A DNA stretch of 64,000 nucleotides from Paraspadella gotoi. Taxonomy: Eukaryota; Animalia; Chaetognatha. The notes under the pieces are model-generated. The model saw only the letters and a list, made by a program, of their open reading frames with translations, was not told the origin of the DNA and ran no database searches. Location: contig CM119266.1 in NCBI GenBank assembly GCA_051294375.1, positions 23,118,350-23,182,349 on the forward strand, in the 5' to 3' direction. The position numbers and the translations under genes are program-made. This document shows positions 8,777-60,876 of this stretch, piece by piece. Each line of letters opens with the position of its first letter. Position 1 is the first letter of the stretch.

Positions 8777-8914
8777 GCTCTAAACTTAATTCCAAAGGCT
8801 TTTTTTACATTAGAAAAGGAGAAGTTTACGTCATATGTTTTAATGGCACCATAGGGCATATGGCTCACCTTATAGAGGGTGATTACTTTGGAGAAACTAA
8901 CCTTCACAAAATTG
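8777..8914 (+). CDS. Exon of multi-repeat cyclic-nucleotide-gated (CNGK-like) channel: CNBD N-half
   Basis: tttag acceptor and gtaatc donor, phase 1->1. Translates SKLNSKGFFYIRKGEVYVICFNGTIGHMAHLIEGDYFGETNLHKI, matching the CNBD pattern Y-I-x-x-G-x-V ... G-x-Y-F-G-E. Confidence 0.88.
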
Positions 8915-14132: not shown

Positions 14133-14317
14133 GTCTCAAGGGCGCTTCACATGTAACTAATTTACTTGTAATTGCTGCTTCTGACTGCGATATGCTTTTA
14201 TTAAAAAATGAAGATTATGCGGCTTGTTGCCGCTGTTTCCCAAAGGCAATAATTTCCAAACTTACCCAAAATTATAAAATGATCATGCGAGCCGAAAAAT
14301 TTCCGACAACAAGGAAG
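14133..14317 (+). CDS. Exon of CNGK-like channel: CNBD C-half
   Basis: ttcaag acceptor and gttaag donor, phase 1->0, in frame with the previous exon. GLKGASHVTNLLVIAASDCDMLLLKNEDYAACCRCFPK resembles the CNBD 'A..CDL..L...D....L..FP' segment. Confidence 0.85.
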
Positions 14318-14909
14318 GTTAAGTCTTAAGAATAAAAGAAATAAAAATCGTACTGTGTGTCCCAGTGGTACTGTCTGTTAATAAAAGCTTATTGCTCCAA
14401 TACCAGATCGAAAAACTTTAAAATTCATTATCATCAATTAGCGCAGATGTATAGACCATTTTATAGGATACCTAAATTTTAGAAAATTGAACCAATTAAA
14501 CTCCTGTAGTTATCACACAAAGTAAATGGATAAAAAAATTTTATCAGTAATTTTTAAAAAAAGATTTTTAAATTAAATATATTTTTTTTAATATTTAATA
14601 AATATATTTTATGAAATTGGTACAACCAATATAAAAATTATCCAATTATAAAAAACTTTTAATAACATTTTAAGAAATAAATAGCAATCTTTTGTTCTGG
14701 CTTTATGATTCAATCGCTCACAACTTAAAATAATGTAATTTAAATATCAAAATAATTAACATATTTTTATTCATTTTTTTATTATATGTTTTTTTCTTTT
14801 CATCGCCTAAGTACTTTTTTTTACAAAATTAAAATTTGAATAATTATATTTATTTATTTTAAAATATAAAATGTAATCTAAAAATTTAAAAAGTGAAAAA
14901 CTAGGACTC

Positions 14910-15562
14910 TGAAGAGATAGTAATTAATGTTATGAGTTAATGACAGAACCGTTCAATATAAGCAGTCCCTGAGCTTCGAATCAGGCTGTAACACTGTGTT
15001 ACAGGCGGGTTAAGCGCCCTGTCCCTCTTAACTGCAAGGTGGCCACCGGGCTAGAACCCCGGACCTTTGGGTTGGGAAGCGAATGACTTGCCTCCGGCAC
15101 CAATGGCCGCTGATGAACGGTTGGTGGATTTTAGTCCACCATACATCCCCCCCTCCCGTAGGGAGAAGTCTGTTGCGTCTCTTCAGTGAATTGTTGTTGT
15201 TGGTGGAAAGTGCGGCACCAAGTTGAGGCATGTCGCCTGATGTGTTGTTGGCGGAAAGTGCATCGCCAGGTTGAGGCATGTTGCCTGAAAGTGTTGTTGC
15301 TGTTGTGTTCGGAAGTCAGGCTCACCAATGAAGAGATAGTAATTAATGTTATGTGTTAGTGATAGAACAGTTCAATATAAGCAGTCCCTGAGCTTCGGAT
15401 CAGGCTGTAACACCGTGTTACAGGCCGGTTAAGCGCCCCGTCCCTCTTAACTGCTAGGCGGCCACCGGGCTAGAACCCCGGACCTTTGGGTTGGGAAGCG
15501 AATGACTTGCCTCCGGCACCAATGGCCGCTGATGAACGGTTGGTGGATTTTAGTTCACCATA
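14910..15562 (-). mobile_element. Complete TRIM with tRNA-like LTRs (Helenus-like)
   Basis: Two 234-bp LTRs (14910-15143, 15329-15562) around a 185-bp interior. PBS TGGTGAGCC next to the 5' LTR, PPT GGGAGGGGGGGA next to the 3' LTR, and TSD ACTC (14906-14909, 15563-15566). Confidence 0.92.
15041..15108 (-). ncRNA. tRNA-like Pol III module within TRIM LTR (also 15460-15527)
   Basis: Minus strand GGCCATTGGTGCCGGAGG...CCGGGGTTCTAGCCCGGTGGCC: terminal GGCCA/TGGCC stem, A-box-like TGGTGCCGGAGG, B-box-like GGTTCTAGCCC in a T-arm-like hairpin. Anticodon arm is broken. Confidence 0.65.
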
Positions 15563-15828
15563 ACTCCTTTAAATTAAATGTTATACAATTAAAAATTGAT
15601 AAAAAAATGAATTCGATATATAGTATCATAAATGGTAAAAACTTATCTTTTACACCGGTATTTCAGAAATAAGATTTAACAACACAGTTCTGCACGATAT
15701 GTAAAAGTACCATAGTAAAAGTAAATTGTGAAATAGTGAAATGTCTGTGTCCACAACGAATTAATCAAGTCAAATTGTATATCTGCTGTTTTTTAATTAC
15801 TTTCGTCTATAAACCAACTGTATTTAAC

Positions 15829-17509
15829 GGTTCAATTGGGATTCCTCCCAACAGGATTCCTCCCACACGGGATTCCTCCCACACGGGTTTCCTCCCACAC
15901 GGGATTCCTCCCCAAGGGATTCCTCCCAATGGAATTGCTCCCACACGGGATTCCTCCCAAAGTAATTCCTCCCACACGGGATTCCTCCCAAAGAAATTCC
16001 TCCCACGCGGGATTCCTCCCACACGGGGTTCCTCCCCACAGAATTCCTCCCCATGGAATTGCTCCCATGCGGGATTCCTCCCATGCGGGATTCCTCCCAC
16101 GCGGGATTCCTCCCACGCGGGATTCCTCCCACACGGGATTCCTTCCACGCGGGATTCCTCTCACGCAGGATTCTTCCCTCACGGGATTCCTCCCATGCGG
16201 GATTCCTCCCACACGGGATTCCTCCCACGTGGGATTCCTCCCACGCGGGATTCCTCCCACGCAGGATTCCTACCACACAGGATTCCTCCCACGCAGGATT
16301 CCTCTCACACGGGATTCCTCCCACGCGGGATTTCTCCCACGTCCAATAGAAAAAAAACAGATTTGAGCAAACAATGTCGGATCTGCCTATGATAATCAAG
16401 TGGTAATAAGCTAACTTGGTCAACTTGCATAATTTAATCAACTTGCATTATTTAGTCAACTGGCATAATTTGGTCAACTGACATAATTTTGTCAGCTGGT
16501 ATAATTTGGTCAACTGACAAAATTTGGTCAACTGGCATAATTTGGTTAACAGGCATAATTTGGTCAACTGGCATAATTTGGTCAACCTGCAGAATTTGGT
16601 CAACTGGCATATTTTTGTCAATTGGCATAATTTGGTCTATCAATCAATCAATCAATCAGAGAGAGATAGAGAGAGAGAAACTTTAAAAAATTAAAATAAA
16701 TGTGTCTTTTGGTTTTCTAATTTGAACTCTTTTCCACAACTACGATTACATCAAAAAATTTATATCCAGCTTTATCACATACTTTCCTACCCACACACAA
16801 AATTTTATTTTAATGAATCAATTTTTTTCCTTGCAACAAGAACATGCAACTAGAAAGATAATCACAATTTAAGGGGAGGAATCCCGTGTGGGAGGAATCG
16901 CGTGTGTGAGGAATCCTGTGTGGGAGGAATCCCGTGTGGGAGGAATCCCGTGTGGGAGGAAATCAGTGTGGAGGAATCCCGTGTGGGAGGAATCCCGTGT
17001 GGGAGGAATCCCGAGTGGGAGGAAACCCGTGTGGGAGGAATCCCGCGTGAGAGGAATCCCGTGTGGGAGGAATACGTGTGGGAGGAATCCCGTGTGGGAG
17101 GAATCCCGTGTGGGAGGAATACCGTGTGGGAGGAATCCCGTGTGGGAGGAATCCCGAGTGGGAGGAATCCCGTGTGGGAGGAATCCTGCATGGGAGGAAT
17201 CCCGTGTGGGAGGAATCCTGCATGGGAGGAATCCCGTGTGGGAGGAGTCCCGTGTGGGAGGAATCCCGCGTGAGAGGATTTCTTTGGGGAGGAATCCCGT
17301 GTGGGAGGAATCCCGTGTGGGAGGAATTCTATGGGGAGGAATTCCATGGGGTGGAATCCCGTGTGGGAGGAATTCCTTTGGGAGGAATTCCGTGTGGGAG
17401 TTATCCCGCGGGGAGGAATCTCGTGTGGGAGGAATCCCATGGGGAGGAATCCCGCGTGGGAGGAATCCAGTTGGGAGGAAACCCGTGTGGGAGGAATACC
17501 ACAGCCACC
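15829..17509. mobile_element. Foldback/Mutator-like element with TIRs made of 18-bp tandem arrays
   Basis: ~GGGATTCCTCCCACAC arrays in inverted orientation (15838-16340 and 16872-17500), GG...CC termini, and a 9-bp TSD GTATTTAAC (15820-15828, 17510-17518). Confidence 0.85.
16355..16830 (+). mobile_element. HINE fragment nested in the foldback spacer
   Basis: Same 5' end TTTGAGCAAACAATGTCGGATCTGCC, followed by an 18-bp array TGGTCAACTGGCATAATT (16455-16637). Confidence 0.7.
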
Positions 17510-17547
17510 GTATTTAACTCATAAAAAATTATTTTTCATTAATATAG

Positions 17548-17641
17548 ATCAAGACTTTTCAGCCAGAAAAATTTTATAATGCTGCTATATCTTACATGAA
17601 AACGAGAGATCCTAACGTTTGGATTGACGTGGTTGCAAGAA
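17548..17641 (+). CDS. Exon of CNGK-like channel: inter-repeat linker
   Basis: tatag/gtaagg splice sites, phase 0->1. Open frame IKTFQPEKFYNAAISYMKTRDPNVWIDVVAR in otherwise stop-rich DNA. Confidence 0.7.
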
Positions 17642-19307
17642 GTAAGGTTAATATTGATGTAAAGATGAAAGAAACTCGGCTTGAAAAGTGAGTTCGTTTT
17701 TCACCTTTTTTAAAAAGTTACTTTTTGTACTCCAACCATAACAGAGGCTATATTAAATGTATTTTCAAAAGTATTTCATAAATAATTAATTACTAATATT
17801 TTCTTTTAAAATTTTGTTTGTCATTTATTATGACATTTGGCCATATTTTCTCGTTTCATCTTCAATTCAGAATTAAAAATGACGTGAAGGGTTTGGGATA
17901 GGGGATAGGTTAGGTAATAGGGTTAGAGGTTTGTGATTAGATTTGGTTAAAGATTTTGTTAAGGATTAAGGTTAATGATTTGGGCTTGTTTACAAAAGTC
18001 GCGAAGAATTTTGTTACATTGGTTAGCGTTCTACGGTCGCGAATAATTTTTGAGACACCAGTTTTCTCATATACGGCCCAAGTTACTGACCTACCACATT
18101 AAGTGTCACATGGGTATACTTTAAGATTTTTTAGGTTTCAGAGCTGGCACTTTTTTGTTTCTTTCACATTCTCTCTGCCCTACCGTGTATTGCAATATAA
18201 TTTCCAAAAAAAATTTAGATATTTTAAGTTTTTTTAATTGATTCTGTTAGAGCTCAAAAAGTTAAGCAAAAAATGTAATTACAACTTTTTAAAATTTTAA
18301 TGTTTTATTACTGAAAATTAAAAAACTGCTAAAATTATCGGATGATAATAATGATGATAATTTTATAAGGTTTTCCTAATTTTAACCCACTTATCATCAA
18401 AATATTTTTAAAAAAATTATACTTTGTTTCCACAATTTCTTTTCGAATTTAAATATATACAAATTATACATTTACAATTATTGAACTTTCTAAATTTTAA
18501 AAATTTTATTGGAAAAATCATTAACGCCTCATATTTAAATAGAAAATAATACGTTTTGGCGTAGTTTTTACGCCACCAGCGCCAACAAAAATGTAAAAAA
18601 TAAGAAATCAAAGCTGAATGCAATACTTTTTTAATTAAAAAAAAAGCGTTTTTAAAAATTTTAGTTGAATTGACGTCATTCAGTTGGCGTAATTCCCATA
18701 TTTAAAAAACAAACTGCCAATTAATGATCAAAGTACACTTCGTAAGGTTTAAATCAATCGAATGAAGAAAAAAAGTATTTTTTAATTTTTTGTGCAATAC
18801 CTTAATTTTGACAGTTCTATTGTTTCTGCAAGCTGATTGGTCGGAGCCGATTTCATTTCGACCAATCATGATTCGGTGATTCCATTTCTGCGGCGATCGC
18901 CCGATCCTCCAATCCGGTTTCGTTTTAGGGAATGTTGATTCTCCTGCGATGATATCGAAGTATGATAAATTATGCCAAAAAAATGATGTCCATCCGTTCG
19001 TCCGTTGGTCCGTCTGTCTGTCTGAAGGTCCGTTCCATGCCAGATGAGCAAATTATGCCAGTTGACGAAATTTTTCCAGTTGACCGAATTATGCCAGTTG
19101 AACAATTTTTTTAGATTTTTTTGGAATAAGTTTCATAATTATCTGGAAGCGTTTTATGCATTAAGATGGATGAACTTTTATTTTTTATTCCTATTTTTTA
19201 GCAAAAATATAATGTTTTCAAACAGTACACGATAGATGATTTTTTTTACAATAGATGGTAATTTTTTTTTTTTATAATACCAAAAACAGTATTGCCTAAA
19301 TCAGATA

Positions 19308-20529: not shown

Positions 20530-23500
20530 CAGTACCGGAAACCTAGAATGTCGTAAGTCTGTACATGGGATAACTTTTCCATTTATAGGATTAATGGCTT
20601 TAGGATTTTATAGGAAGTTGCCTGGATGGCTGGCTATTGCCCATTTAAGCAATTTTTCAAAAAAATAATCTTAAACCACTTAAGAATTGGGTCAATTTTT
20701 TTTTTAAAAAACTTGCATAGCTCTAATATATTTTAAATTTTTTTCTTAAAATTTTGCCAACTTATACTCAAGAGGGTTTGTAAACTTCTGTAGAAATATT
20801 GTTACTTTCAAAAATTTTTTTTCCATATTTATTAGTGCTAATATTTTAGATGGGTCATTTTTTCAATGATGCATAACTTCCTTATTTGTGAATATTACGT
20901 TTTAAATTTTAGTAATAGGTGGGCCTTGGGTAGTCCTCAATACATATAAATTTCAATCATTTTGAAAAACTTTTTGACACAGGTCAATTTTTTATTTCAA
21001 ATTCAATTGTCAATCCTGCTAAAAATATTATTGCAAATAATGTTATTCTTTGCCTATAAATTAGTTAAAACATATTTAAAATAAGCCTAAAGCAAAAAAT
21101 TTTTCTCAACATTTTTAAAAACTCATTTGCATATTGTTGCATTTTATATTTTTTAATTTTTTTCACATAAAACTAAATCCATTTTTTACAAATTTTTGGT
21201 ACACAAATAATATATAATCAAACCTTTAACAAATATACCATCAAACGCTAATTTTTAAGAAATTTCAAATATTTTTAATTATTTTATATATTACTAAAAT
21301 TATGATTTTAATAAGCATTCTGCTAACTTTTTCAAAGTGGGGCATCATTGAAAAGAGGGCAACTCAAGAGATATCCAAATATATAATTTTTTTACACAAA
21401 TTTAATGTCCCAAAGCTAGAGATAATTCTTTCCAAAGTGCTCAAAAAATTGAAAAAAACACAACTTTTTAATTGTTAATAAAAAAATGCGACTATGATAG
21501 TTTTGTTTCAATACTTAGTAACTAGGTCAAGAATTGTTCATATTTTGTGGTGAAGTCATGTCCATGGAAGAAAATAAATATTATAGTAGATTCCTCAATC
21601 GATTTTTAAATTTGGCTGAACATTTTACTCTTTTTTACCAAGTTTTTAGAGTATGCTAAACGTTTCTCTGATTACGCAAAATAGAATTTGAGAAATAAAA
21701 AATTAATAGTATCAATAGTTGGTGTTATGTCTCAAATAGATGGGAAAAAAACCTTGTTTAAAAATTTGATCTGGAATAGGGGTAACTTAGGCGTACCAAT
21801 GGCATTGTCCATGCCAATCGTTCTTTCAAATAATTTTTTTTATTTAATACATTTGAAAGGGGAAAAAAGGAAATTCGAAATGCTGGTGGTATGAAAGTTA
21901 TAGAAAATCTGGCCATGGTGACTTGATAATCAAGACCTTTTATGTCTTGTGTAATGGGGGCAGTAAATAGACCCAAAAAATTCAATCAATAAGTCAGTCA
22001 ATCAACCCTTTCAAATAGACTGTTCTGCAAAATTTTTTCTCTTCACTCAAAAATTTATTTTCTTCACTAAAAAATTTCGCAGAACAACCTATTTGAAAGG
22101 GTTGATTGACTGACTTAATGATTACATTTTTTGGGTTTATTTACTGCCCTCATTACGCAAGACATAAAAGGTCATGATTTTCAAGTCACTATGCCCGGAT
22201 TTTTTATAACTTTCATGCCACCAGCATTTTGAATTTCCTTTTTTCGCCTTTCAAATGTATTAAATAAAAAAAATTATTTGAAAGAACGATTGGCATGGAC
22301 GATGCCATTGGTACGCCTAAGTTATCCCTATTCCAGATCAAATTTCTAAACAAGGTTTTTTTTTTCATCTATTTGAGACATAACACCAACTATTGGTACT
22401 ATTAATTTTTTATTTCTCAAATTCTATTTTGCGTAATCAGAGAAACATTTAGCATACTCTAAAAACTTGGTAAAAAAGAGTAAAATGTTCTGCCAAATTT
22501 AAAAATCGATTGAGGAATCTACTATAATATTTATTTTCTTCCCTGTACATGACATTACCACAAAATATGAACAATTCTTGACCTAGTTACCAAGTATTGA
22601 AACAAAACTATCATAGTCGCATTTTCGATTAACGATTAAAAAGTAATGTTTTTTTCAATTTTTGAGCACTTTGGAAAGAATTATGCCTCTGCTTTGGGAC
22701 ATTAAATTTGGTAAAAAAAATTATATATTTGGAAATCCTTGAGTTGCCCTCTTGTTCATGCATGCCACTTTGAAAAAGTTAGCAGAATGCTTATTAAAAT
22801 ATAATTTTAGTAATATATAAAATACATTAAAAATATTTGAAATTTCTTAAAAATTAGGTGTTTGATGCGTATATTTTTAAAGCGTTTGATTATATTACTT
22901 TCTGTGTACCAAAAATTTTAAAAAAATGATTAGTTTTATGTGAAAAAATTTAAAAATTATAAAATGCAACAATATGCAAATGAGTTTTTAAAAATGTTGA
23001 GAAAAATTTTTTGCTTTAGGCTTATTTTAAATATGTTTTTAACTTGATTTATGAGGCAAAGAATAACATTATTTGCCAATAATATTTTTAGCAGGATTGA
23101 CAATTGAAATTTGGAAAACAAAAAAAAATTGACCTGTGTCAAAAGTTTTTCAAAATGATTTGAAATTTATATGTATTGTAGGAGCTACCCAAGGCCGCAC
23201 CTATTACTAAAATTTAAAACCATAATATTCACAAATAAGGAAGTTATGCATCATTGAAAAATGACCCATCTAAAATATTAGCACTGATAAATATGGAAAA
23301 AAAAATTTTTTGATAGTAACAATATTTCTAAGCAGAAGTTTACAAACCCTCTTGAGTATAAGTTGGCAAAATTTTAAGAAAAAAATTTAAAATATATTAA
23401 GCTATGCAAGTTTTTAAAAAAAAAATTTTGACCCAATTTTTAAGTGGTTTTAAGATTATTTTTTTGAAAAATTGCTTAAATGGGCAATAGCCAGCCATCC

Positions 23501-32550: not shown

Positions 32551-33120
32551 CATTTTCACTGTTTAAAAAAAATTGTTGCTTGAACTACTTCAAACTCTTT
32601 CTAATTCAAAAACGTGACGAAAGAAATGATTTCACATAATGGTATAAATGATAATTTTTTTATTGCTGGATTAAAAGTTTTTTTAAGGAAAAGAAAAGAA
32701 AATTATAAATCTGATTAACTTTTTGATGCATGGATATTGTTTATCTTCTCCTTCACCTGGAAAAACTTAAAAATAGGGTATTCCCTCTAAAGATTTACAT
32801 AAAACTTTATGAAAAAAGGGTCTAACTTCCGGCTATAGTTTTTGAGCAAAAAAATGGTATGCCGGTAAAAAAATTACTGATGAAAAAAAATTAAATTAGT
32901 AAAAGGTATTAAAAATTAAAACCAGGAATTGTTAAAATTAGCAAAGTCTCATTAATTGAATAAAATCGAAATAAAATTTTGAATATTTCAAGTTAAAGTT
33001 ATAAGTCCTTTGGCTATTAAAAAACGAATCTTTTTAAGATGTAATAATTGATAAATATGATAGGATTTTTTTATGATATGGATTGTGGATAAGGCGCTAA
33101 GTGGGCTGAAGATGACTATC

Positions 33121-33368
33121 CGTAACTCTATAACCCCCTTTAGTAGCCATGGAACGGGGTCTGGGCTTGGAACCAGGCTTGAGGGGTTGCCACGCCCCCA
33201 AGGCGGCTTACGGCCGTCCTCACGCTTCCCGAAGGGTAGGTACCAGGTTGGGATTGAACCCGGTACCTAGTGGTCATGAGCTTATGGCTTTACTCAATGA
33301 GCCACCGGGTAAGGACTGAAGGCGTCATGCTTATAGGCGGGGTGAACCTAGGCAATGCCCGACTACAG
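33121..33368 (-). mobile_element. ~250-bp tRNA-containing repeat, family 2
   Basis: Reverse complement of 61582-61831 with the same boundaries; internal A and B boxes. Confidence 0.8.
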
Positions 33369-34919
33369 GATGATAATCCTTTGTGATAAAGCTGTCATAT
33401 AACAGTAAAAAACCATTAGCAGTCAGAATAGATCAAAAACTTTTAATAATACATATTTAATTGATTATCAAGCACTATTTCCGGTTTGGGACACGCCCAC
33501 TATTGATGAAAATCATTTTTTGAACATTTTTTGTGTAAGTACTACTTATTAAATAATTATACTAATTGCAGGATAAGTAAAAAACAACTGCCTAACTTTT
33601 CATTTGTAGTAAAAAGAAAAATTCCATATTTTAGTCCACGCCAACTTCCGGTAAATTGTGCGTAGGTCTAATGCAAAATCTGATTGACGAAACCTTGTTA
33701 ATCGTTTTAAGCACTTAAAATTATACTAGAAACTGTACAGGATTGTGAAAATTTTCGACTGCATGGTTAAAAAAAAACAGTGTATTTTTTAAACAACAAT
33801 GAAGGATCACCATTTGGTGATGGCTCACCTATACCTGGATATTGGGATTAAAGAGCCAAAATCCATGAAGGGTATAGGTTCCCAACTGATGACCTTCCCA
33901 TTGTATAAACATAAAAAATAAAAAATATTCAAAAAATAAATAATTAAAAAGTAGAATAAAGGAAAAAAAATTTTAATTAAAATATTTTAAAATTATATTC
34001 ATAACATAACGGTGCCCCTATAGACCTTTCCCCAGTATGTATCCCTATCAGAACATACAATTCTACATGGTCGTCTTATCCCTATTGGTAAAAAAATCAT
34101 ATATAACGTTGGCCCCCCTAAAAAAATTATCCATTCCCACCCCTTTCTGTTCAGCCTTTTAGATATAATGATTTTTCATTAATGACTTTCTAACAGAAAT
34201 ATGTGATATCTATTAGAAAACTGGGACAGATAGTAATCTAACCTTGTGTTGTATAGATGCTCCCTCTATTTCCAGAAGACAACACTGACTTCCCCTTCCC
34301 AAATTGAATTATTAGATAAATAAAACATTTTTAAAAAAGAAAGCAATATATATTTGTTTAAATAATATAGATTAAATACTAAATCCTTCATAAAATATAA
34401 AAATAGAAAATACTGAAACAAGTAATTTGAAAATTTTCATATTTCACCCTCAACCCAACAGAATAGAAATCAGTACAAGACCGCTGCAAATATATTTGAC
34501 TTCTACAGTTAGAGAAAACGAAGTAAAAAACGCAAAATAAAAAAAAATTTCAAAAGAAATCCGATTGAAAGCCATGTTTTCTTTTTAGTATTTTTTGCAC
34601 AAGACGGTTATGGATTTTTTTTGTTCCGGCGGCGTTGGATAGCCTAAACGCTGTAGTTTCAAAAACCATCCATAGTTTTGTAATATTTACTGCGCTACTG
34701 GTGCAAAAATTGCTAGGAACCAAAATTATCAGAAACCGCTTTGTTCTTTCAGATTTTTTTCTTTGCGCGGAATGACACATCTATTTTATTGACTCGGAGT
34801 TTATTTTTACTGGTCTTTTGTTTGACCATAGTTTAAATTTAGAGAGACATGATATGCCTTTTTTTTGGGTATTTTATACTCAATCTTAAACGTTTCGCCC
34901 TGTCTTTTGTTATTTGTTT

Positions 34920-35794: not shown

Positions 35795-35996
35795 GTCTGA
35801 TAAACATTTTAAGATTTACATGACTCTTCTATGTTTTTTTACAATAGAAACTTTTTTGTTAGACTTGTAATGATGGAAAAAAAAATTGGAAAAATTATTA
35901 ATTTTATTGTCAAATACGTTTTTTTTATGGTGGACTAAAATCGGATCTGCTTATCAGCAGATCCCGACTTTTGCTACTAATTAGTAAGAAATATAG

Positions 35997-36188
35997 CTGT
36001 AGTCAGGCATTGCCCAAGTTCACCCCGCTTATAAGCATGACACCTTCAGTTGTGACCCGGTGGCTCCTTGACCAGTTGGTACCGAGTTCAACCCCAACCC
36101 ACTACCTACCTTGCAGGAAGCATGTGGACGGCTGGAAACTGCTTTGGGGGCGTGAAAAACTCTCAAGACTGGCTGTTAGGAGGGGTTA
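35997..36188 (+). mobile_element. Diverged copy of tRNA-containing repeat family 2
   Basis: Aligns with 61582-61820 with deletions. Confidence 0.75.
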
Positions 36189-38199
36189 AAAAAATATAAA
36201 ATTCAGGCAATGATAAGAATGGTGATGAATTTTTATAGTTTTTCTATTTTTATTATCAAAATTTTAATACTAACTTTTATTTAACTTGTTAAGTTTTATA
36301 AGAATCCATTCTTAAAAAATAAGATTAAAAAAAAATTATCAATTGTCATATAATAATAAATATTTAAAAGCTTCAGTGCAACAACCTAATGAACTAATTC
36401 AAAAAGTTGCATTGAAAATCGATTTTGTAGTAGAAGGAAAAAAGAAATTTTTTTGAGAGAGCAAGATGTTAAAGTGTTCAATCTTGGCCCGCCTTAGGTT
36501 CCGCGTACAAACGTTGCATTTAGGAAAAAAACGCCTCTTTCCACTATTGTTCAGTTGTTACTTACAATGTTGATTAACTTTGTACCACAACACAAATTAG
36601 GCCGAAAGAAGGATTGGTTAAAAACATCTCCACCCATTTCTAATGATAAAATAGTACCATTTTGGCAACTTTTAGCCAAAAAAATTATGTCCATTTTTGT
36701 CCATTTTTACTTATGACTTCTGATTTGAATGCCAAGGAAAGTTGAGAAAAATTTTTTACTTTGGAAATCCGTTCTTTCTTATCTTCTTTACCTCTGGGTA
36801 AATTTATTAGCTTAAATCATTTATAGTTTGCCTATGAATTAATTTTAAAGTTAACAAGTCAAAAAGTTGGAGTTTCAGTCTTTATCATAATTTGTTAAAC
36901 AAAAATAAATCAAATTGGTTGAAATTAACAGAAAATATAACCTATTGAATAAGCTTTTAACACCTATAAAATTATCAAAAAAACTTTTCTGGTTTAGCCA
37001 CAAATAATTTTTAAAGACGTCTTTTAATTTGTGACTTTTTGTGACTTGCATTTATTTTTGATAAAGAGAATATTTTCAACTCATTTATTAGTTTTAAAAG
37101 ATGAGGTATATACTGACCCTGATTAATCAAAAAAAACCGCATCCTTTTAATCCACTGGAAAGCATCAGGACTTGTTTTTTCTCAAAATCGACAGATTTTG
37201 CGGAAAAATTTTCCGCAAAATCTGTCAATTTACTAAATTTGCTAGGCAACCAAAATTGAAAGAAAAATCATGCGCTATCGTTGATTTTCTTTCTTATAAT
37301 GCATTTTAAATTTTTTCTTTGATTTGGCTCAATGTAAACGTAGTGAGAGAAAATAGGAAAGGGAAAACAATAGAAGGAGAAGGGGAGAGAATGAAAGAGA
37401 GGGTGAAAGGCAAAAAAACGAAGGCAAATGGGGAAAAAATAGTGAAACAATTGTAAGGTAAGAAAAGAGGGGAAAAATGGAAAGAAAAAGAGGGGAAAAA
37501 AGGGAAAGAATGAAAATAAGAAAAAAAGGTGAGGAAAGTGCATGAGTGACCGAAAAAGGTAGGGGCCAAAAAAATGGTAAGTGACAGCGTGAGAAGTAAG
37601 GGAGGAAAGAGGAAGAGGAAAATATAAAGTAAGAGAAGAAAAGAGGTCAAGAAAAATTATCAGGAAAAGCGTGTGAAAGAAAAAAAATTGTATCAGATAA
37701 TGTGGCGTCTTACCTAAAATCTTTTGTGTAAGTAAAAGACATGAGGATTCTTATAAGGAATTCGATCTCTAAAAATCATCTGTACCATAAAAATTCAAGC
37801 ATACTTTTTTTAAAAAATTAAGCAGTTAATGAGATTAGATTGACAAGCATTGAAGAAATCATGTCTTACCGTATTTTTAACTCATAGAAATTTACATTGG
37901 AAGTTCTAAGTGATAAGAAGGAGATAACTTGAGACTACCGTTTTTTTAAATGAAGAAAGCTTCGTACTAACCAATGAGATCAAGAAATATGGTAATTATT
38001 GAAGTTCAGATTTCGTTGTCTAAAAGACACTGATTGTATGCGAAACCCTTAGTATTCACCTTTAATAATGGGGGAAGAGATTGTAAAATTTCCGCACTCT
38101 TATGTTGGGCGTATTTTGCGTATTTAAACTTTTAAAGTTTTGAAGATCACAGAGATGAAAATAACCAACAAAATGTGTTCAATAAATTTGTTAAAATCC

Positions 38200-38964
38200 A
38201 AACGCTGACACTCCCCAGCAAATTACTTCCGGTTCCAGCAACCGCCGCCGCCGCTCGCGCACAAATCCTCGACGACCGAGCAGACGTTGCCCTCATGCAG
38301 CCTCTGCCAGCCGCTTGGCACGCGGCGCCACCCTCTCACATCCTTGAAACGCTCGCCGACGCCGACCGCGTCTACATCAGACGCGACGGCCACTCAACGC
38401 CGCTCCAACCCACGTCCGATGGCCCTTATATCGTGCGCGAACGAAGTTATCTCCGTTGATCGATTGAAGCCGGCCGTTACCGATGAAGCCGCGCCCCCAG
38501 ATCCTAATCAAGCACGCCCACGCGGCCGACCGCGCCACCCTTTAGCACACGCGCCCCCGTTAACGGATGCGGCACAACTCGCGTCCACCACGACGCCGCA
38601 AGTTGCTCGTCGACAATCATCATCAATCCCCGATCTTTTAAATGTTCTTCCGACAATGCTTCAGCCGCCGGAAGATGACGAAAACGACGACGCAATCCTA
38701 TAACTCTCTCAAGCCTTCTCCCCATTCGGTCGAAGCCTTGGTGGGGGGATGTGTGGAGCAACAACAACGACAATACGCAACCTTGATATTAGTGACTGAA
38801 TGACCTTACCCTCGTTCATTACCCTCTTTCTCTTTATGGTCATTGGTCAAACTTTGACTTTGTAAATTACTATGTAATAGACTTAGCATTTGAGCCTTTT
38901 ATTGTTATCGTTATTAACCTTGAAGAATAAAATCATTCTTACTCTGAAACTTGTTGCGTCCACA
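38200..38964 (+). mobile_element. Gypsy 3' fragment: integrase GPY/F region, PPT and 3' LTR
   Basis: ADRVYIRRDGHSTPLQPTSDGPYIV. PPT GGTGGGGGGA at ~38740-38749. LTR 38752-38964 runs TGTGGA...TCCACA and contains AATAAA. Confidence 0.85.
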
Positions 38965-40755: not shown

Positions 40756-41249
40756 GTGTTACAGGCGGGTTAAGCGCCCCATCCCTCTAAACTGCTTGGT
40801 GACCACCGGGCTAGAACCCCGGACACACATCCCCCCCTCCCGTAGGGAGAAGTCTGTTGTGTCTCTTCAGTGAATTGTTGTTATTGGTGGAAAATTCGTC
40901 ACCAAGTTGAGGCATGTCGCCTGATGTGCTGCGGGTGGAAAGTGCATCGCCAGGTTGAGGCATGTCAACTGAAAATGTTGTTGTTGCTGTTGTGTTCGGA
41001 AGTCGGGCTGACCAATGAAGAGACAGTAATTATTGATATGTGTTAATGACAGAACCGTTCAATGTAAGCAGTCCTTGCGCTTCGGATCAGGCTGTAACAC
41101 CGTGTTACAGGCGGGTTAAGCACCCCGTCCCTCTAAACTGCTAGGCGACTACCGGGCTAGAACCCCGGACCTTTGGGTTAGGAGGCGAATGACTTGCCTC
41201 CGGCACCAATGGCCGCTGATGAACGGTTGGTGGATTTTAGTCCACCATA
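40756..41249 (-). mobile_element. Truncated copy of the tRNA-LTR TRIM
   Basis: Full LTR 41016-41249 (234 bp), PBS, interior, PPT and a partial second LTR. Confidence 0.9.
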
Positions 41250-42038: not shown

Positions 42039-42117
42039 GTACGTAACTTTAATATTATAGTTAATTAATATTAATTCTTCTAATACTGAATAAGTTCAGT
42101 GTATATTTAATATATAT

Positions 42118-42351
42118 TGAAGAAAGAGTAATTATTGTTATGTGTTAGTGACAAAACCGTTCAATATAAGCAGTTCCTGAGCTTTGGATAAGGCTGTAAC
42201 ACCGTGTTACAGGCGGGTTAAGCGCCTCGTCCCTCTTAACCGCTAGGCGACCACCGGGCTAGAACTCCAGACCTTTGGGTTGGAAGGCGAATGACTTGCT
42301 TCCAGCACCAATGGCCGCTGATGAACGGTTGGTGGAGTTTAGTCCACCATA
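42118..42351 (-). mobile_element. Solo LTR of the TRIM
   Basis: 234 bp with the same termini; TSD ATAT (42114-42117, 42352-42355). Confidence 0.9.
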
Positions 42352-42384
42352 ATATATGCAAAAAAACTTATTTTGGTAACACAG

Positions 42385-42486
42385 ATATGAATCACAGCTA
42401 CATCATGACTTTCATTATATATTGGAGCTTCAAAAACAATGCAATGAAGAGAAAATACATCTTCATTCATTACCATTTCACGATAA
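42385..42486 (+). CDS. Exon of CNGK-like channel: extracellular turret
   Basis: cacag/gtaagc, phase 2->2. YESQLHHDFHYILELQKQCNEEKIHLHSLPFHD. The preceding intron is short once the solo LTR is removed. Confidence 0.65.
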
Positions 42487-43710
42487 GTAAGCTCAATACA
42501 ATATTTATCCGGATCTACTTTCAGCAGATTCCGGCTCTATTATTTACTTAGTCGGTCCGTCGGTCCGCCCCCCTAATCCTGTCGGTAAGTCACTTTTGTC
42601 GAATTAGGATAAATTATGCAAAAAATTGATGTCCGTCTGTCCGTCTCTCTGGGCGTCCGACTGTCGGTACGTCCCCCCTTAGATTTGAACGCCAATTATT
42701 CATGAGTGGATGGATGGATTGAGATGAAATTTAGTGTGTGTGTAGGAAAGTGTGTAATTGAGTTGGACATAAAGTTTCGATAAAATCATCCAAGTTAAAA
42801 TGAAAAAAACAAAAACTTGTTGCACTATTGGATTATTTTTTTTCATATACTATCTAGGAAAAAAGTATATAACATTTTTAATAAATAATAACTATTCAAA
42901 AACTTGTTTGATTTTAAAATAATCAAAATGTTTCCGGATCGACATTAAATTTTTTTTCAGTAGCTTCCTTCCATTTTTTTGTTGGTCAAATCGTTTAGAA
43001 GTTACAGGCCAATAAATATTGTTACTTCAAATAACAAACGGCGAAAAAAATCAAATTTAGTTTTCCTCAATTTTTGGTATTTAGTTATTTATTTTTATTT
43101 CGTATAGAGTTATTTATTTTTAGTCCGGTCCGCCCCTTCAATCTTGTCGGGCATTAACTTATTTCATGTCAGAATATCAAATTATGATAAATTATATAAA
43201 AAAGATGATGTCCATCCATCCGTCTGTCTGTCTGTCCATCCATCCATCCATTAAAATTAAGTTTCGATGGAATCGTTTGAGTGGAAATGAGTTTAAATGA
43301 AAAAAAAACAAAAAAACTGTTTCACTAATTGATTATGCTTCTTTTTCTTTTTATATTAAATGTAAATGCAAAATGTATAATCAAATAATTAATCAGTTAA
43401 TTAATCAATTATTCAATTAATTAATTATTACATAATCAGTCCATTAATCAATTAATTAATCAATTAATCAAACCTTTTGGATTAAGTTAATTATTTAAAT
43501 GATTAATTAATTAATTAACTTGAATTAATTAATTAATAATTAAGAGAGAGCTCGTCTCACTTCTTTTCTACTTCTCTTACATCGTCACAATCCTTCACCT
43601 TTTTCCCTACATTTATTTTCACGTATTTTCGTCTTCTACATTTTTTTTTAATATTAAATAAAGAGAAAAACAAAGTTTTATTAGTTTCAACGAATTTGTT
43701 TTATTCAGGA

Positions 43711-43757
43711 AAACAGACATGTTTCGGCTTTGGTTTTTCAAGCCTTCTTCAGTGTTT
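43711..43757 (-). ncRNA. Minimal type I hammerhead ribozyme
   Basis: AAACA-CTGAAGA-A-GGCTT-loop-AAGCC-GAAA-CATGTC-TGTTT on the minus strand. Confidence 0.88.
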
Positions 43758-44608
43758 GTGAATTAGACAAAATATTGTGCAAAAGAAGAGTGAGAGGAGA
43801 GAGAGAGAGAGAGAGAGAGAAAGTTAAAGTTTCCAACAAAGTGGTGAGACAGAATAGTGGTCAGAGGTGAGGACAGGGTAAGTTGAACACAGATTGAGTG
43901 AGTTTTTTGAAAAGAAATGAAATTTGTTAGAGAGAAAGAGAGAAAGAGAGAGATAGACTTAACAAGGGATAAATATAATAATTAAAAATATACATTGTGC
44001 AATGTACAACAGTGATAAATGTTTAAAAACTGAAAAAGATTGGTGAGAATTTTTAACAATTGCAAAAGAGTGAATAAATAATTCAATATGTGTACTAATT
44101 AGCTAAAGAAATTTGGTGAAATGTGAAGTTGAAAAATGAAAGAAAGTTTAGTTTATATTTTTATTGCTATATAAGAGCCTAAGAAATTGAAATTTAAGGA
44201 GTAAGAAAGAGCTCAAAATGAGCTGGCCCCCCTTGGTTGTGCAAAGGAAGGACTTAGGGGATGGTGACGGGTCATTGGCGCGTCAGTGGCGTGAGAGGAG
44301 AGTGTGAACCGAACTTGTAAGTGTTGGACTGGGGACTGAGAGTTTTTTAAACATTTATCACTGTTGTACATTGCACAATGTATATTTTTAATTATTTATT
44401 TATCCCTGTTAAGTCTATCTCTCTCTTTCTCTCTTTCTCTCTAACAAATTTCATTTCTTTTCAAAAAACTCACTCAATCTGTGTTCAACTTACCCTGTCC
44501 TCACCTCTGACCACTATTCTGTCTCACCACTTTGTTGGAAACTTTAACTTTCTCTCTCTCTCTCTCTCTCTCTCACTCTTCTTTTGCACAATATTTTGTC
44601 TAATTCAC

Positions 44609-44654
44609 AAACACTGAAGAAGGCTTGAAAACCAAAGCCGAAACATGTCTGTTT
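44609..44654 (+). ncRNA. Minimal type I hammerhead ribozyme
   Basis: Stem I AAACA/TGTTT, core CTGAAGA, stem II GGCTT/AAGCC, GAAA, palindromic CATG in stem III, GTC cleavage triplet ending at 44649. Confidence 0.9.
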
Positions 44655-45589
44655 TCCAATAAAAACAAATTCGTTGAAACTAATAAAACTTTGTTTTTCT
44701 CTAAATCATTTACAACGAAAAGAAAGGATTATCATATAATATTAAATAAAAATGCAAGCTGCATTAATTTAACCAATTACTCAATCAATTAAATAATCAA
44801 ACAAGTGATTAATCCAATCAATTAATTTAACAATCAATTAACTTATCAATCAATCAATTAGTGATATTATCGTCGTCGATAATCCTCGGATACTCGCGGA
44901 GCAACTCTATAATTCACTTTTCGGTCGTTCTGCCGGTCGGTCCGTCGGTCTGTCCCACTTATGTTAAAATATATATAATTTGCTTATAGTTGGGTGCTCA
45001 TTTGTTGAAACAGAAAAAACCTCAAATCTAAGTGAATTTCAATGCAGTACGTGTCATAAATACACAGGCTGAGATAGTTATTATAGTTATGTAGTCATGT
45101 CATGTCGCGTCTTGTCATGTCATGAGAAATACACGTGATAAGGCAGTCACTGCGTCGCAACACATTTGAATTACCGTTCTTGTTTTATGGTCAATATCCT
45201 TACAAAAAGACCTAAAAACAAACAAGTTTGAGTTTGAGTTAAATTAATTAATGAATTAATTATTGCTAATGATCGTGGGCAGATCCGGCATTGTTTGCTC
45301 AAACTTATTCAATTTGTCGGTCACACCTTAATTTGGTTGGTCATCTTAGAACATCAAATTATGAAAAAAAAATCTTAAAAGTATAGTGATCTCGCCAGAC
45401 CTTACTATCAAAGAAAATTAATGAAAAAATATTTTAATCTAATTTGCATATTGCAGTTAATAATAATTAAATGGAAATACAAACAAAAAATATTTGAATC
45501 GATATAAAACAAATAAAATGGAAACACATTTAAACTTCCTCACTGCCTTACTAATGGAACTTGATAACTAGATAATTAAAAATGAAAAA

Positions 45590-46180: not shown

Positions 46181-47174
46181 TTAAATTTAAAACAAGTTTG
46201 AGCAAACAATGTCGGATCTGCCTACAATAATTAAACGGTAATCTGCTAATCAGATGATAAATCAAAATATTTTTTAAATTTTTTTAACTCGCATCATTTT
46301 TTTTAACTTGCATCATTTTTTCAACTTTCTTAATTTTTTAACTTGCATAATTTCTTCAACTTGCATAATTTTTTCAACTTGCATAATTTAATAAATAATA
46401 AAAATAAAAAATATAAAACCCCCTGTCGACCTAATCGACAGTTGGAGCTTCTCTCCCGGCAACCTCGGTCTTCCTCCCGTCTCCGCGCTCCAACTGTCAA
46501 TTGTACACTTATTATATAAAGTATTTTATGTATTTTGGTATTTTTTGAATTTTTGTAATTTTGGTATTTTTCATTTTGAAAACATTTTTGCATGTTTAAA
46601 CCGGTACAGAGACCTGGTTGTTAATATTATTATATTTCAATAGCATTACTATATTATTTATCAACATTCTGTTCAATCACTTAAGATAGACGACAACAAT
46701 TATTTTGTTCTAATATTTAAGACCATATATTATAACAGGGGGCATGGAGCGCTCGAGTGAATCAAATCTATTACAGAAATAATTCCTCCACTTATGGGAT
46801 TTGAACCATCGAACTCAAGCTCTGGACAACCTGAGTTACAACTCAGAGCCATCCAGATGGCCCTGATTCCTCAGAGAATCTAAACCTATTTTAAAACTTT
46901 AAAAACAAATGGCGCCAAGACATCTTTTGGTGAACAGAGCAAACTGTTTTAAAGAAAAACAAAAGATTTCTAAATCGAGATTTAAAGCTTTAAATGAAAA
47001 CAAAATTGCTGAGAAATCAGGGCCGTCTGAGTGGCCCAGAGCTGTAGCTCGAGTCACTCAGAACTTGAGTTTGACGGTTCAAATCCAAACAATGGATGAA
47101 TTATTTCTATAAAAGATCTGATTCGCTCAAGTGGCCGCATGCCCCCCGTTGTAATATATGGTTAAATATATTTA

Positions 47175-47930
47175 AGCAAAGTTCGAAAATAAGTTCTTCA
47201 ACAATTTTATTTTTGTACGGACCTGTTTCAACTCTTTTTCGAGCCTTCATCAGCGTTAATAAACATTTACAAATTTGTGCAAAAGAAGGGAAAGAGAGAG
47301 AGAGAGAGAGAAAGAAAGAGAGAAAGGGCAAAAAGTTTCCAACACAGAGATAGTGGTTTAAAGAATGAGTACAGTTTAAGTTGAGGACAGATCAGTTGTG
47401 AAGAGAAGTGAAATGGTCAATTGGTGAAAGAGAGAGAGACAGAGAGAGAGAGAGAAGGAGAGAGGGAGAGAGAGAGAAACAGAGAGAGACAAAATAATAC
47501 ATTGTGCAATGTACAACCAGGAATAAGTTTAAACTAATAGTGAATTTAACAATTAATCTAATAATATATGTGTTTTATTCGTTTACAACAATTAGTTGAA
47601 ACAGTACATTCAAAAGGGCATACAGCATTACAGATAAACGCATAAATTGTACAGTTTACAATTCAAGAAAATATAAATATTTAAATTAACAGAACGAAAA
47701 AAGAAAAAAAAATCAACAATAAGCTGACAAGATTTTTAGAATATTGTTTCTAGAGGAAAAAAGCTTGGATTCAAAGTTTTTTTTTTTTAAATAGATAGTA
47801 ATGAAAGGAAAGAAAGTTTTTAAATGTGAAATGATACATTTTTTTTGTGAGGGATAGATAAGTGACTGTTAAAGTGAAAAATTAAGAATTATGATAGAGC
47901 TCAAAATGAGCAGGCCCCCCTTGTAGCCAG
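47175..47930 (-). mobile_element. Penelope-like remnant (duplicated at ~54145-54907)
   Basis: Hammerhead at its 3' end and similarity to 43760-44235; ends at (ATT)n. Confidence 0.72.
47217..47256 (-). ncRNA. Minimal hammerhead ribozyme
   Basis: ACG-CTGATGA-A-GGCTC-loop-GAGTT-GAAA-CAGGTC-CGT. Confidence 0.75.
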
Positions 47931-47932
47931 GA

Positions 47933-47964
<32 letters not shown>

Positions 47965-47982
47965 GATTAATTGTTAAATTCA

Positions 47983-53392: not shown

Positions 53393-54185
53393 GCACTAAT
53401 CGACAGTGGGAGCTTCTTCTCCCGGCATCCTCGGTCTTCTTCCCGTCTCCGTGCTCCAACTGTCAATTGTACACTTATTATATAAAGTATTTTATGTATT
53501 TTGATATTTTTGGTATTTTTTGAATTTTTGTAATTTTGGTATTCTTCATTTTGAAAACGTTTTTGCATGTTTAAACCGGTACAGAGACCTGGTTGTGAAT
53601 ATTATTGTATTTTAGTAGCATTTTTATATTATTTATCAACATTCTGTTCAATCACTTTAAGATAGACGACAACATTATTTTGTTCTAATATTTAAGACCA
53701 TATATTATAACAGGGGGGCATGAGCCGCTCGAGTGAATCAAATCTATTACAGAAATAATTCCTCCACTTATGGATTTGAACCATCGAACTCAAGCTCTGG
53801 ACAACCTGAGTTACACTCAGAGCCATCCAGATGGCCCTGATTCCTCAGAGAATCTAAACCTATTTAAAACTTTAAAAACAAATGGCGCCAAGACATCTTT
53901 TGGTGAACAGAGCAACTGTTTTAAGAAAACAAAAGATTTCTAAATCGAGATTTAAAGCTTTAAATGAAAACAAAATTGCTGAGAAATCAGGGCCGTCTGA
54001 GTGGCCCAGAGCTGTAGCTCGAGTCACTCAGAACTTGAGTTTGACGGTTCAAATCCAACCAATGGATGAATTATTTCTATAAAAGATCTGATTCGCTCAA
54101 GTGGCCGCATGCCCCCCGTTGTAATATATGGTTAAATATATTTAAGCAAAGTTCGAAAATAAGTTCTTCAACAATTTATTTTTGT

Positions 54186-54224
54186 ACGGACCGTTTCAAC
54201 TCTTTTTCGAGCCTTCATCAGCGT
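54186..54224 (-). ncRNA. Minimal hammerhead ribozyme (duplicate, 1-nt deletion in stem III)
   Basis: Same as 47217-47256. Confidence 0.6.
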
Positions 54225-60761: not shown

Positions 60762-60876
60762 GGCCGTCTGAGTGGCCCAGAGCTGTAGCTCGAGTCACTC
60801 AGAACTTGAGTTTGATGGTTCAAATCCAACCATGGATGAATTATTTCTATAAAAGATCTGATTCGCTCAAGTGGCC
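60762..60876 (+). ncRNA. Putative structured Pol III-type RNA, antisense within LTR-like segment (variant R)
   Basis: Stems GGCCG/TGGCC, TCTGAGTGGC/GTCACTCAGA, GAGC-TGTA-GCTC and CTTGAGT/GCTCAAG; B-box GGTTCAAATCC at 60817-60827. Confidence 0.55.

What the first reader, a model, noticed from the sequence alone, without database searches (positions are those of the whole stretch)
14910..15562. Miniature LTR retrotransposon whose LTRs carry a tRNA-like Pol III module
Seen: a 653-bp non-coding element with two 234-bp LTRs (about 11 differences by eye), PBS, PPT and 4-bp TSD. Each LTR holds a sense-strand tRNA-like A/B-box unit flanked by several hairpins (GGTGGA..TCCACC, CTGTAACAC..GTGTTACAG, CTGA..TCAG). 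Three insertions lie in one gene. Known: Cassandra TRIMs carry 5S-derived LTRs, and Helenus TRIMs carry tRNA-like LTRs with 4-bp TSDs in animals. Inference: a probably unrecorded Helenus-like family transcribed by Pol III and mobilised by a Gypsy partner.
Basis: partly seen in the sequence, partly recalled or inferred. Interest (0 to 1): 0.72.

Follow-up and report, generated by a model that had tools for sequence, protein, structure and literature searches.

The report
tRNA-bearing mini LTR retrotransposon, terminator-free
This is a real, very abundant 653-base gene-less jumping element whose two end repeats each carry a decayed tRNA-like piece, a new family of the 'Helenus' kind described in 2024, likely copied by a CsRn1-type Gypsy retrotransposon and unusual in having no stop signal for the polymerase that would read it.

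Summary
Observation confirmed. The element reads on the minus strand: two 234-nt LTRs (11 differences), ends TA..CA, 185-nt interior, PBS, PPT, 4-bp TSD. A truncated copy and a solo LTR lie at 40.8-42.4 kb, and runs of the host hold many more insertions with the same ends. Each LTR has a tRNA-like unit (LTR 34-106): B box 10/11, but A box degenerate, no Rfam tRNA hit, and boxes no more conserved than the rest (3/24 vs 15/177 variable sites). New here: the PBS fits the published tRNA-Trp PBS of CsRn1-clade Gypsy elements, and a Gypsy 3' fragment in the window shares 13/14 nt at the PPT/LTR junction. The sense strand has no T4 Pol III terminator, unlike 53 of 55 published Helenus LTRs I read. 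The other two, also Trp-primed, show by eye a hammerhead ribozyme that the paper does not mention. Here a second folded domain (108-183) holds that position, but matches no known ribozyme. No published family has these lengths or motifs; Repbase/Dfam could not be searched. The scan found Helenus-type elements before in at least 21 other genomes. Verdict: new Helenus family; Pol III use, partner and RNA ends are inferred; host phylum undetermined.

The parts
14910..15562 (-). Full-length miniature LTR element (copy A), 653 nt, non-coding, no run of four T on its sense strand
15329..15562 (-). 5' LTR, 234 nt, ends TA..CA
   Evidence: loose ends of public contigs at 15329
14910..15143 (-). 3' LTR, 234 nt, 11 differences from the 5' LTR
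   Evidence: loose ends at 14910 and 15143
14906..14909 (+). Target-site duplication ACTC, left
15563..15566 (+). Target-site duplication ACTC, right
15316..15327 (-). Primer-binding site of tRNA-Trp type; 11 of 12 against the CsRn1-clade PBS printed in PMC2582038; at the one differing site 94-99% of family depth has the matching base
   Evidence: Fig. S2 of PMC10886601
15144..15328 (-). Interior, 185 nt, non-coding, CAA-rich
15146..15158 (-). Polypurine tract, followed by TG and the 3' LTR
15457..15529 (-). tRNA-like unit 1 of the 5' LTR (LTR 34-106): 7-bp acceptor stem and 5-bp T stem, broken D and anticodon arms
15510..15522 (-). Degenerate A-box region (LTR 41-53); 12% of X1 depth carries A at LTR 48, nearer the recalled consensus
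15467..15477 (-). B box (LTR 86-96), 10 of 11 against the recalled consensus, GGTTC intact
15038..15110 (-). tRNA-like unit 1 of the 3' LTR
15380..15455 (-). Second folded domain of the 5' LTR (LTR 108-183): predicted closing stem plus three hairpins, resembling a tRNA without D arm; function unknown, no known ribozyme matched
   Evidence: Rfam negative
14961..15036 (-). Second folded domain of the 3' LTR
15122..15141 (-). 7-bp hairpin at the LTR start (LTR 3-22), directly behind the PPT; also at 15541-15560 with one mismatch
15366..15541 (-). Predicted 9-bp long-range stem, LTR 22-30 with 189-197, enclosing both folded units (9/9 pairs in three copies, 8/9 in this one)
40756..41249 (-). Copy B: intact 5' LTR 41016-41249 and interior; 3' LTR reduced to about LTR 80-148; no TSD left
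42118..42351 (-). Solo LTR (copy C) with TSD ATAT at 42114-42117 and 42352-42355
38136..38964 (+). 3' fragment of a Gypsy element (integrase end with GPY motif, PPT, 213-nt TG..CA LTR at 38752-38964); its PPT/LTR junction 38743-38756 matches the TRIM's in 13 of 14 nt: candidate partner lineage, not part of the TRIM
14133..14317 (+). Host exon (second half of a cNMP-binding domain) just upstream of copy A, which lies antisense in the following intron (next exon candidate 17548-17687)

Best explanation
It is a high-copy, non-coding miniature LTR retrotransposon of the Helenus (TRIMp3) kind, likely transcribed by RNA polymerase III from the tRNA-like unit in its 5' LTR and likely copied and inserted in trans by a tRNA-Trp-primed, CsRn1-type Gypsy element. 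Shown: LTRs, PBS, PPT, 4-bp TSDs, solo LTR, many further insertions, tRNA-like unit on the sense strand, no T4 run. Inferred: transcription would start near LTR position 34 and, lacking a terminator, run through the interior and the whole 3' LTR to the first T run in the flank (10 nt downstream at this locus), so that U3 is about LTR 1-33 and nearly all the rest is repeated at both RNA ends. The RNA would be packaged by the partner, primed by host tRNA-Trp at the PBS and by the PPT, and integrated with a 4-bp duplication. The tRNA-like unit serves as a promoter, not as a tRNA and not as the primer.
For: LTR anatomy and two independent 4-bp TSDs. Identical ends in hundreds of public contigs: 817 of 14847 X1 contigs laid on one LTR run over its ends. 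PBS 11 of 12 in each of the two window copies and matching at the odd site in 94-99% of family depth, against the CsRn1-clade PBS, a clade also defined by 4-bp TSDs (PMC2582038 and PMC3630058, passages). PPT/LTR junction 13 of 14 identical to a Gypsy fragment in the window, 0.003 such matches expected by chance. tRNA-like unit on the same strand as PBS and PPT, beyond shuffles (6 of 1000 at -ps87), with intact GGTTC, acceptor and T stems. No T4 in 653 nt of sense strand; 90 of 2000 shuffles share that. 7 of 10 common variants at paired sites keep the pair, and sense C>T outnumbers G>A 11 to 3 (p 0.06). Helenus is defined by this anatomy, and animal families have 4-bp TSDs and Gypsy-type PBSs (PMC10886601).
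Against: The A box is degenerate and a spaced A+B pattern fails in 4 of 4 copies. Rfam tRNA is not hit, and relaxed ARAGORN is permissive (3 hits in 3 kb of unrelated bacterial DNA at -ps80). Boxes are not more conserved than the rest. The structure-keeping variants are mostly C>T at CpG sites, which keep G-U pairs by default. No RNA evidence: the one holder flagged as RNA of this organism is a guess and is kept as contigs. No intact partner with a 5' LTR and PBS was found in the window, the partner fragment's LTR is otherwise unlike the TRIM's, and the clade's CHCC gag motif could not be tested because the 57 long homologues fetched begin at the protease (0 of 57). Pol III use has not been validated for any Helenus (PMC10886601, section 4.1).
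Confidence: 0.6

Rival explanations
1. Same TRIM and partner, but the RNA is cut at one site in each LTR (by self-cleavage in domain 108-183, or by RNase P/Z acting on the tRNA-like folds) to give a 419-nt unit-length RNA that would circularise and be reverse-transcribed like a plant retrozyme; this would explain the missing terminator.
For: No T4 on the sense strand. The only two Trp-primed published Helenus LTRs (2_SyJa, 2_SyUm) also lack T4 in the LTR and, by eye, carry a full type III hammerhead right behind the tRNA-like unit, where this family has its second folded domain. Plant retrozymes share LTRs, PBS, PPT, 4-bp TSD and Gypsy dependence (PMC4918200 passages). Part of domain 108-183 resembles a recalled twister loop.
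Against: No Rfam ribozyme at E up to 10. No GAAA follows a hammerhead core within 60 nt on either strand. The twister descriptor fails in P2 (2-3 mismatches of 3) and gives partial matches in 1 of 4 LTRs only; an HDV-like descriptor gives loose hits in 1 of 4 only. The domain's folding z-scores are weak. The wasp elements have T4 runs in their interior, so the parallel is incomplete.
Confidence: 0.15
2. An ordinary TRIM whose RNA comes from polymerase II (own weak promoter or read-through from host genes); the tRNA-like unit is a decayed SINE or tRNA relic with no promoter role.
For: Degenerate A box, no Rfam tRNA hit, boxes not better conserved than the rest. Copies sit in introns.
Against: GGTTC and both stems are intact in most copies, the unit lies on the PBS/PPT strand, the sense strand is free of T4 (p about 0.045), and the length is in the range that PMC10886601 ties to Pol III. 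The three window copies are antisense to the host exons, so host read-through would give the wrong strand here.
Confidence: 0.2
3. The LTR's tRNA-like unit is the element's own primer for reverse transcription.
For: tRNA-like folds are present in the same RNA; an earlier scan note raised the idea for diatom TRIMs.
Against: The best match between the PBS complement and the LTR is 6 nt and lies at neither unit's 3' end; the PBS fits host tRNA-Trp.
Confidence: 0.02
4. Not an LTR element: two neighbouring tRNA-derived SINE copies or a local duplication.
For: tRNA-like head; the ends are TA..CA, not TG..CA.
Against: PBS and PPT in the canonical places, TSD around the pair and around a solo LTR, a second copy with the same interior, no poly-A or repeat tail; TA..CA ends also occur in published Helenus LTRs (1_MeDo start, 3_MeDo, 3_TheEle, 2_EuAn).
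Confidence: 0.02

Closest known systems
Helenus (TRIMp3), Kojima 2024, PMC10886601. Read: main text parts 1-4 and 6 of 6; supplement parts 1, 8, 9, 10, 11 of 11; parts 2-7 only searched for short motifs
   Same: Non-coding, under 1 kb, two LTRs each with a tRNA-like unit and GGTTC B box, PBS, PPT, 4-bp TSD as in animal families, solo LTRs, Gypsy-type PBS.
   Different: No family in Table S1 has LTR 234 with interior 185, and five of six diagnostic motifs are absent from DataS1 (the sixth hits unrelated mussel LTRs). A box weaker than the TRGCY..YGG described. The tRNA-like unit lies in the 5' half of the LTR and is followed by a second folded domain, not by a T run (53 of 55 published LTRs read in full have four or more T behind the unit; three LTR ends seen as snippets also seem to lack it).
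Helenus-2_SyJa and Helenus-2_SyUm (Synergus wasps; DataS1 and Fig. S2 of PMC10886601)
   Same: The only published families with a tRNA-Trp PBS; similar G-rich PPT and LTR start; no T4 in the LTR; tRNA-like unit followed by a structured RNA domain.
   Different: No shared sequence beyond the priming sites by eye; their downstream domain is, by eye, a type III hammerhead, which this family lacks; their interior is about 485 nt and has T4 runs.
CsRn1 clade of Ty3/Gypsy (PwRn1, AgCR; PMC2582038 and PMC3630058, passages read)
   Same: tRNA-Trp PBS of the same 12-nt pattern, 4-bp TSD, tolerated deviations from TG..CA ends.
   Different: Autonomous, several kb, encode Gag-Pol; this element encodes nothing and would be their passenger.
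Plant LTR retrozymes (PMC4918200, passages read)
   Same: Non-autonomous, LTR-bounded, PBS, PPT, 4-bp TSD, Gypsy-dependent, structured LTR RNA.
   Different: They carry a hammerhead in each LTR and a tRNA-Met PBS; no hammerhead here.
Cassandra and Ajax TRIMs (as described in PMC10886601; the original Cassandra paper was not held)
   Same: TRIM with a Pol III-type small-RNA unit in each LTR.
   Different: 5S-derived rather than tRNA-derived; Ajax has 5-bp TSDs.

Membership tests
Helenus (TRIMp3) | Two LTRs, non-coding, about 0.3-1.3 kb | tested here: met
   653 nt, LTRs 234 nt at 95.3% identity, no ORF of 100 aa in copy A
Helenus (TRIMp3) | PBS behind the 5' LTR and PPT before the 3' LTR | tested here: met
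   minus strand, 15327-15316 and 15158-15146
Helenus (TRIMp3) | 4-bp TSD (animal families) | tested here: met
   ACTC at copy A, ATAT at the solo LTR
Helenus (TRIMp3) | tRNA-like sequence in the LTR, sense to the element | tested here: met
   ARAGORN relaxed, 4 of 4 LTRs at 34-106, above shuffles; weak, since Rfam tRNA is not hit
Helenus (TRIMp3) | B box with GGTTC | tested here: met
   GGTTC in 4 of 5 LTR copies; the solo LTR has one change
Helenus (TRIMp3) | A box with TRGCY and YGG (most families) | tested here: inconclusive
   YGG present, TRGCY 3 of 5; spaced A+B pattern fails in 4 of 4 copies; a 12% variant is nearer the consensus
Helenus (TRIMp3) | Promoter boxes more conserved than the rest of the LTR | tested here: inconclusive
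   3 of 24 vs 15 of 177 polymorphic sites, p 0.46; only 18 polymorphic sites at 4% or more in one run
Helenus (TRIMp3) | Transcription by RNA polymerase III | not testable with these tools
   only contigs available; unvalidated for Helenus as a whole (PMC10886601)
A published Helenus family | Same lengths and sequence as a consensus in Table S1 / DataS1 | tested here: not met
   motif searches can miss hits across line ends; Repbase and Dfam not searchable
Passenger of the CsRn1 Gypsy clade | tRNA-Trp PBS of the clade pattern | tested here: met
   11 of 12 in both window copies; matching base in 94-99% of depth at copy A's odd site
Passenger of the CsRn1 Gypsy clade | Autonomous host element with the same PBS and ends and a CHCC gag motif | tested here: inconclusive
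   a 3' Gypsy fragment shares 13 of 14 nt at the PPT/LTR junction, but has no 5' end; gag absent from the 57 homologues checked; no genome held
LTR retrozyme | Hammerhead (or other known self-cleaving ribozyme) in each LTR | tested here: not met
   Rfam negative; hammerhead core, twister and HDV-like descriptors, all recalled, fail
LTR retrozyme | Unit-length linear and circular RNA | not testable with these tools
   no raw RNA reads
Cassandra / Ajax | 5S rRNA-derived unit in the LTR | tested here: not met
   no 5S hit in Rfam scans

The most novel reading that the evidence does not exclude
Trp-primed tRNA-bearing TRIMs are animal LTR retrozymes driven by Pol III: instead of a T-run terminator they cut their RNA once in each LTR and propagate through a unit-length, probably circular RNA. 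The wasp families use a hammerhead; this family uses its second folded domain (LTR 108-183), which would then be a self-cleaving ribozyme of an undescribed class or an RNase P/Z substrate.
Probability: 0.12. Interest if true: 0.85.

Novelty: new member of a known kind. Interest (0 to 1): 0.4.

Why it matters
As a new Helenus family it is a modest addition: an abundant, fairly young one with an unusually clear pointer to its partner clade, which is unknown for most tRNA- or 5S-bearing TRIMs. It bears on an open point of the class: how a Pol III transcript of an LTR element gets terminal repeats when most Helenus LTRs have a terminator right behind the promoter. This family has none, so its RNA ends are directly mappable and one in vitro assay decides whether the second LTR domain cleaves itself. 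If it does, it would join tRNA-promoter TRIMs to retrozymes in animals and may give a new ribozyme class.

Tried and rejected
No host genome is held, so no genome-wide copy set, tRNA-Trp gene or full-length partner could be sought. Metagenome pattern scans: 0 hits, then 1 hit that is a chance 25-nt hairpin in a bacterial contig (L001); viral contigs 0. Earlier scan notes by sequence and by place: none. The phylum is therefore undetermined. Single pieces of the family at 92-95% identity in organism B (2 contigs, depth 4-5), a biofilm metagenome (1) and a marine metatranscriptome (1) were laid; they hint at an aquatic host but may be carry-over and show neither strand nor expression. Laid depth (LTR up to 4.8 million, interior about 1 million, flank about 400 in X1) is not a copy number by the tool's own warning and is used only as 'very many'. 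Dating from the 4.7% LTR divergence was dropped: 3 of the 11 differences fall on sites polymorphic in the family (LTR 108, 200, 204). The Gypsy remnants at 46-61 kb have no matching PBS. Ribozyme readings (hammerhead, twister, HDV-like by script; twister-sister-like and pistol by eye only, against passages of PMC11620745 and recalled consensus) did not fit. RNAalifold on 5 copies gave no covariation support (covariation term +2.71). In one search one helix (LTR start) was entered in the wrong register and was corrected; exon ends were off by one or two bases and were corrected. The bacterial promoter scan is not relevant. Papers seen as search listings only: apart from those named; passages were read of PMC10085705, PMC11662667, PMC11620745, and the outline and part 1 of section 4 of PMC6154101.

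Full report
Observation. The window is AT-rich eukaryotic DNA (66% AT) with introns and many repeats. At 14910-15562 lie two 234-nt direct repeats with 11 substitutions and no gaps, 185 nt apart, flanked by ACTC on both sides. Read on the minus strand, the first repeat is followed after one base by a TGG-starting primer-binding site and the second is preceded by a G-rich polypurine tract, so the element is on the minus strand and its LTRs run TA..CA. The window holds two more insertions: copy B (40756-41249) with an intact 5' LTR and interior but a deleted, truncated 3' LTR, and a solo LTR (42118-42351) with an ATAT duplication.

Family. Nine runs of one coded organism hold 45-66% of the sampled words. 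Laid on the element, contigs of three runs break off into heterogeneous flanks exactly at the LTR ends (X1: 98 at 14909/14910, 202 at 15143/15144, 63 at 15329 among rows shown), and 817 of 14847 X1 contigs laid on one LTR run over its ends. The family is abundant and uniform: 23 variant rows at 4% or more, all shown, three of them private to this LTR. Depth is not a copy number.

tRNA-like unit. Default ARAGORN and Rfam find no tRNA. Relaxed ARAGORN calls LTR 34-106 on the sense strand in 4 of 4 LTRs up to -ps84 and in one up to -ps89; 6 of 1000 dinucleotide shuffles give any hit at -ps87. Acceptor and T stems pair (7/7 and 5/5 in the 5' LTR), the B box fits the recalled consensus in 10 of 11 places, the D and anticodon arms are broken and the A box is degenerate. 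Polymorphic sites are no rarer in the boxes (3 of 24) than outside (15 of 177; p 0.46). Of 10 variants at paired sites 7 keep the pair, and sense C>T outnumbers G>A 11 to 3 (p 0.06); this is suggestive only, because CpG decay gives G-U pairs by default. So the unit is more than chance but weak: a likely promoter remnant, not a tRNA gene. It is not the primer: the PBS complement matches the LTR over 6 nt at most.

Partner. PMC2582038 (passages) prints the PBS of CsRn1-clade Gypsy elements as a 12-nt tRNA-Trp pattern and gives 4-bp TSDs and modified LTR ends; PMC3630058 (passages) agrees. Copies A and B each match 11 of 12, at different places, and at A's odd site 94.5%, 99.2% and 99.3% of depth in three runs has the matching base. 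A Gypsy 3' fragment at 38136-38964 (integrase end, E down to 9e-8 against fetched polyproteins; 213-nt TG..CA LTR) shares 13 of 14 nt with the TRIM at the PPT/LTR junction, with 0.003 expected by chance; beyond that the LTRs are unlike. Its clade could not be confirmed, since it has no 5' end and the 57 long homologues lack gag. The partner is therefore inferred at clade level.

RNA ends. The sense strand has no run of four T in 653 nt (90 of 2000 shuffles do likewise); the first such run lies 10 nt into the flank. By eye, 53 of the 55 published Helenus LTRs that I read in full (26, 11 and 18, of about 230 families) have such a run behind the tRNA-like unit; three more LTR ends seen as snippets seem to lack it. 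The two exceptions among the 55 are the only Trp-primed families, Helenus-2_SyJa and -2_SyUm, and by eye they carry a complete type III hammerhead behind the unit (core, three stems, complementary loops). The paper's main text names hammerheads and ribozymes only in a reference title, and a four-term search found no other paper. In our family the same position holds a second folded domain, LTR 108-183, with a 7-bp closing stem and three hairpins, like a tRNA without D arm (ARAGORN only up to -ps76 in one copy). It matches no Rfam ribozyme, fails recalled hammerhead, twister and HDV-like descriptors and folds with z from -0.7 to -2.0. The simplest reading is Pol III read-through into the flank, with most of the LTR repeated at both RNA ends. 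Cleavage to a unit-length, retrozyme-like RNA (compare PMC4918200) rests on analogy and is given 0.15.

Setting. Exons at 8777-8914 and 14133-14317 encode one cNMP-binding domain, as a stored homologue holds both in one frame (P0084). Five exon candidates to 27.7 kb are phase-compatible and a sixth lies at 42385-42486. Copy A lies antisense in an intron; that B and C lie in the same gene is plausible but not shown. The host phylum was not determined.

Comparison and verdict. The element meets the structural definition of Helenus in PMC10886601. It is none of the families in Table S1 by length or by motif. Repbase and Dfam could not be searched, and parts 2-7 of the supplement were searched, not read. 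Searches for later work on the class returned only that paper and passing mentions. This scan has noted Helenus-type elements 119 times in at least 21 genomes, once with a Trp-class PBS in a flatworm (unchecked notes). Verdict: a real, new family of a known kind, with a well-supported partner clade and an untested, possibly informative lack of a terminator. Interest 0.4.

Noticed in passing
DataS1 of PMC10886601, Helenus-2_SyJa-LTR and Helenus-2_SyUm-LTR; not in the window: Both published Trp-primed wasp LTRs contain, by eye, a complete type III hammerhead ribozyme (core, stems I-III, GUC site, about 12 nt of loop I/loop II complementarity) behind the tRNA-like unit. The paper's text does not mention it. 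They may be animal LTR retrozymes with a Pol III promoter.
   Followed up: partly
flanks of family insertions in runs X1, X5, X9 (table 7); window 42114-42117: Loose-end consensus cells next to the LTR ends mostly read ATAT in register, as does the solo LTR's TSD: a possible target-site preference (overall agreement only 0.41-0.47, AT-rich genome).
   Followed up: no
window 8777-42486, plus strand: Divergent gene with a cNMP-binding domain followed by transmembrane-like exons and a later C-linker-like exon; by recall this order resembles multi-repeat cyclic-nucleotide-gated K+ channels (CNGK). Only unnamed metagenomic homologues were found.
   Followed up: partly
window 46400-61300: Tangle of about four frameshift-rich Gypsy pol fragments (RT, RNase H, integrase) alternating with a 770-nt repeat that has internal inverted repeats; may be a decayed tandem array or an assembly artefact.
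   Followed up: partly
window 35926-35942: 17-nt exact match, in the opposite orientation, to the LTR's start, at the end of another hairpin-bearing repeat (E 0.01).
   Followed up: no
window 33080-33380 and 36000-36200: Two related GC-rich stretches with a tRNA-like B-box word, in opposite orientations: possibly another SINE or TRIM family; 33161-33368 recurs inverted at 61582-61789.
   Followed up: no
window 15825-17520: Two arrays of a 16-nt GC-rich unit in inverted orientation, 260 nt from copy A: likely a foldback-type or MITE-like element.
   Followed up: no
window 21483-22625 and 43662-44702: Long inverted-repeat elements (arms of about 285-370 nt, 93-97% complementary), MITE or foldback-like.
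   Followed up: no
family variants: Most common variants are transitions at CpG sites, which suggests that the host methylates these repeats.
   Followed up: partly
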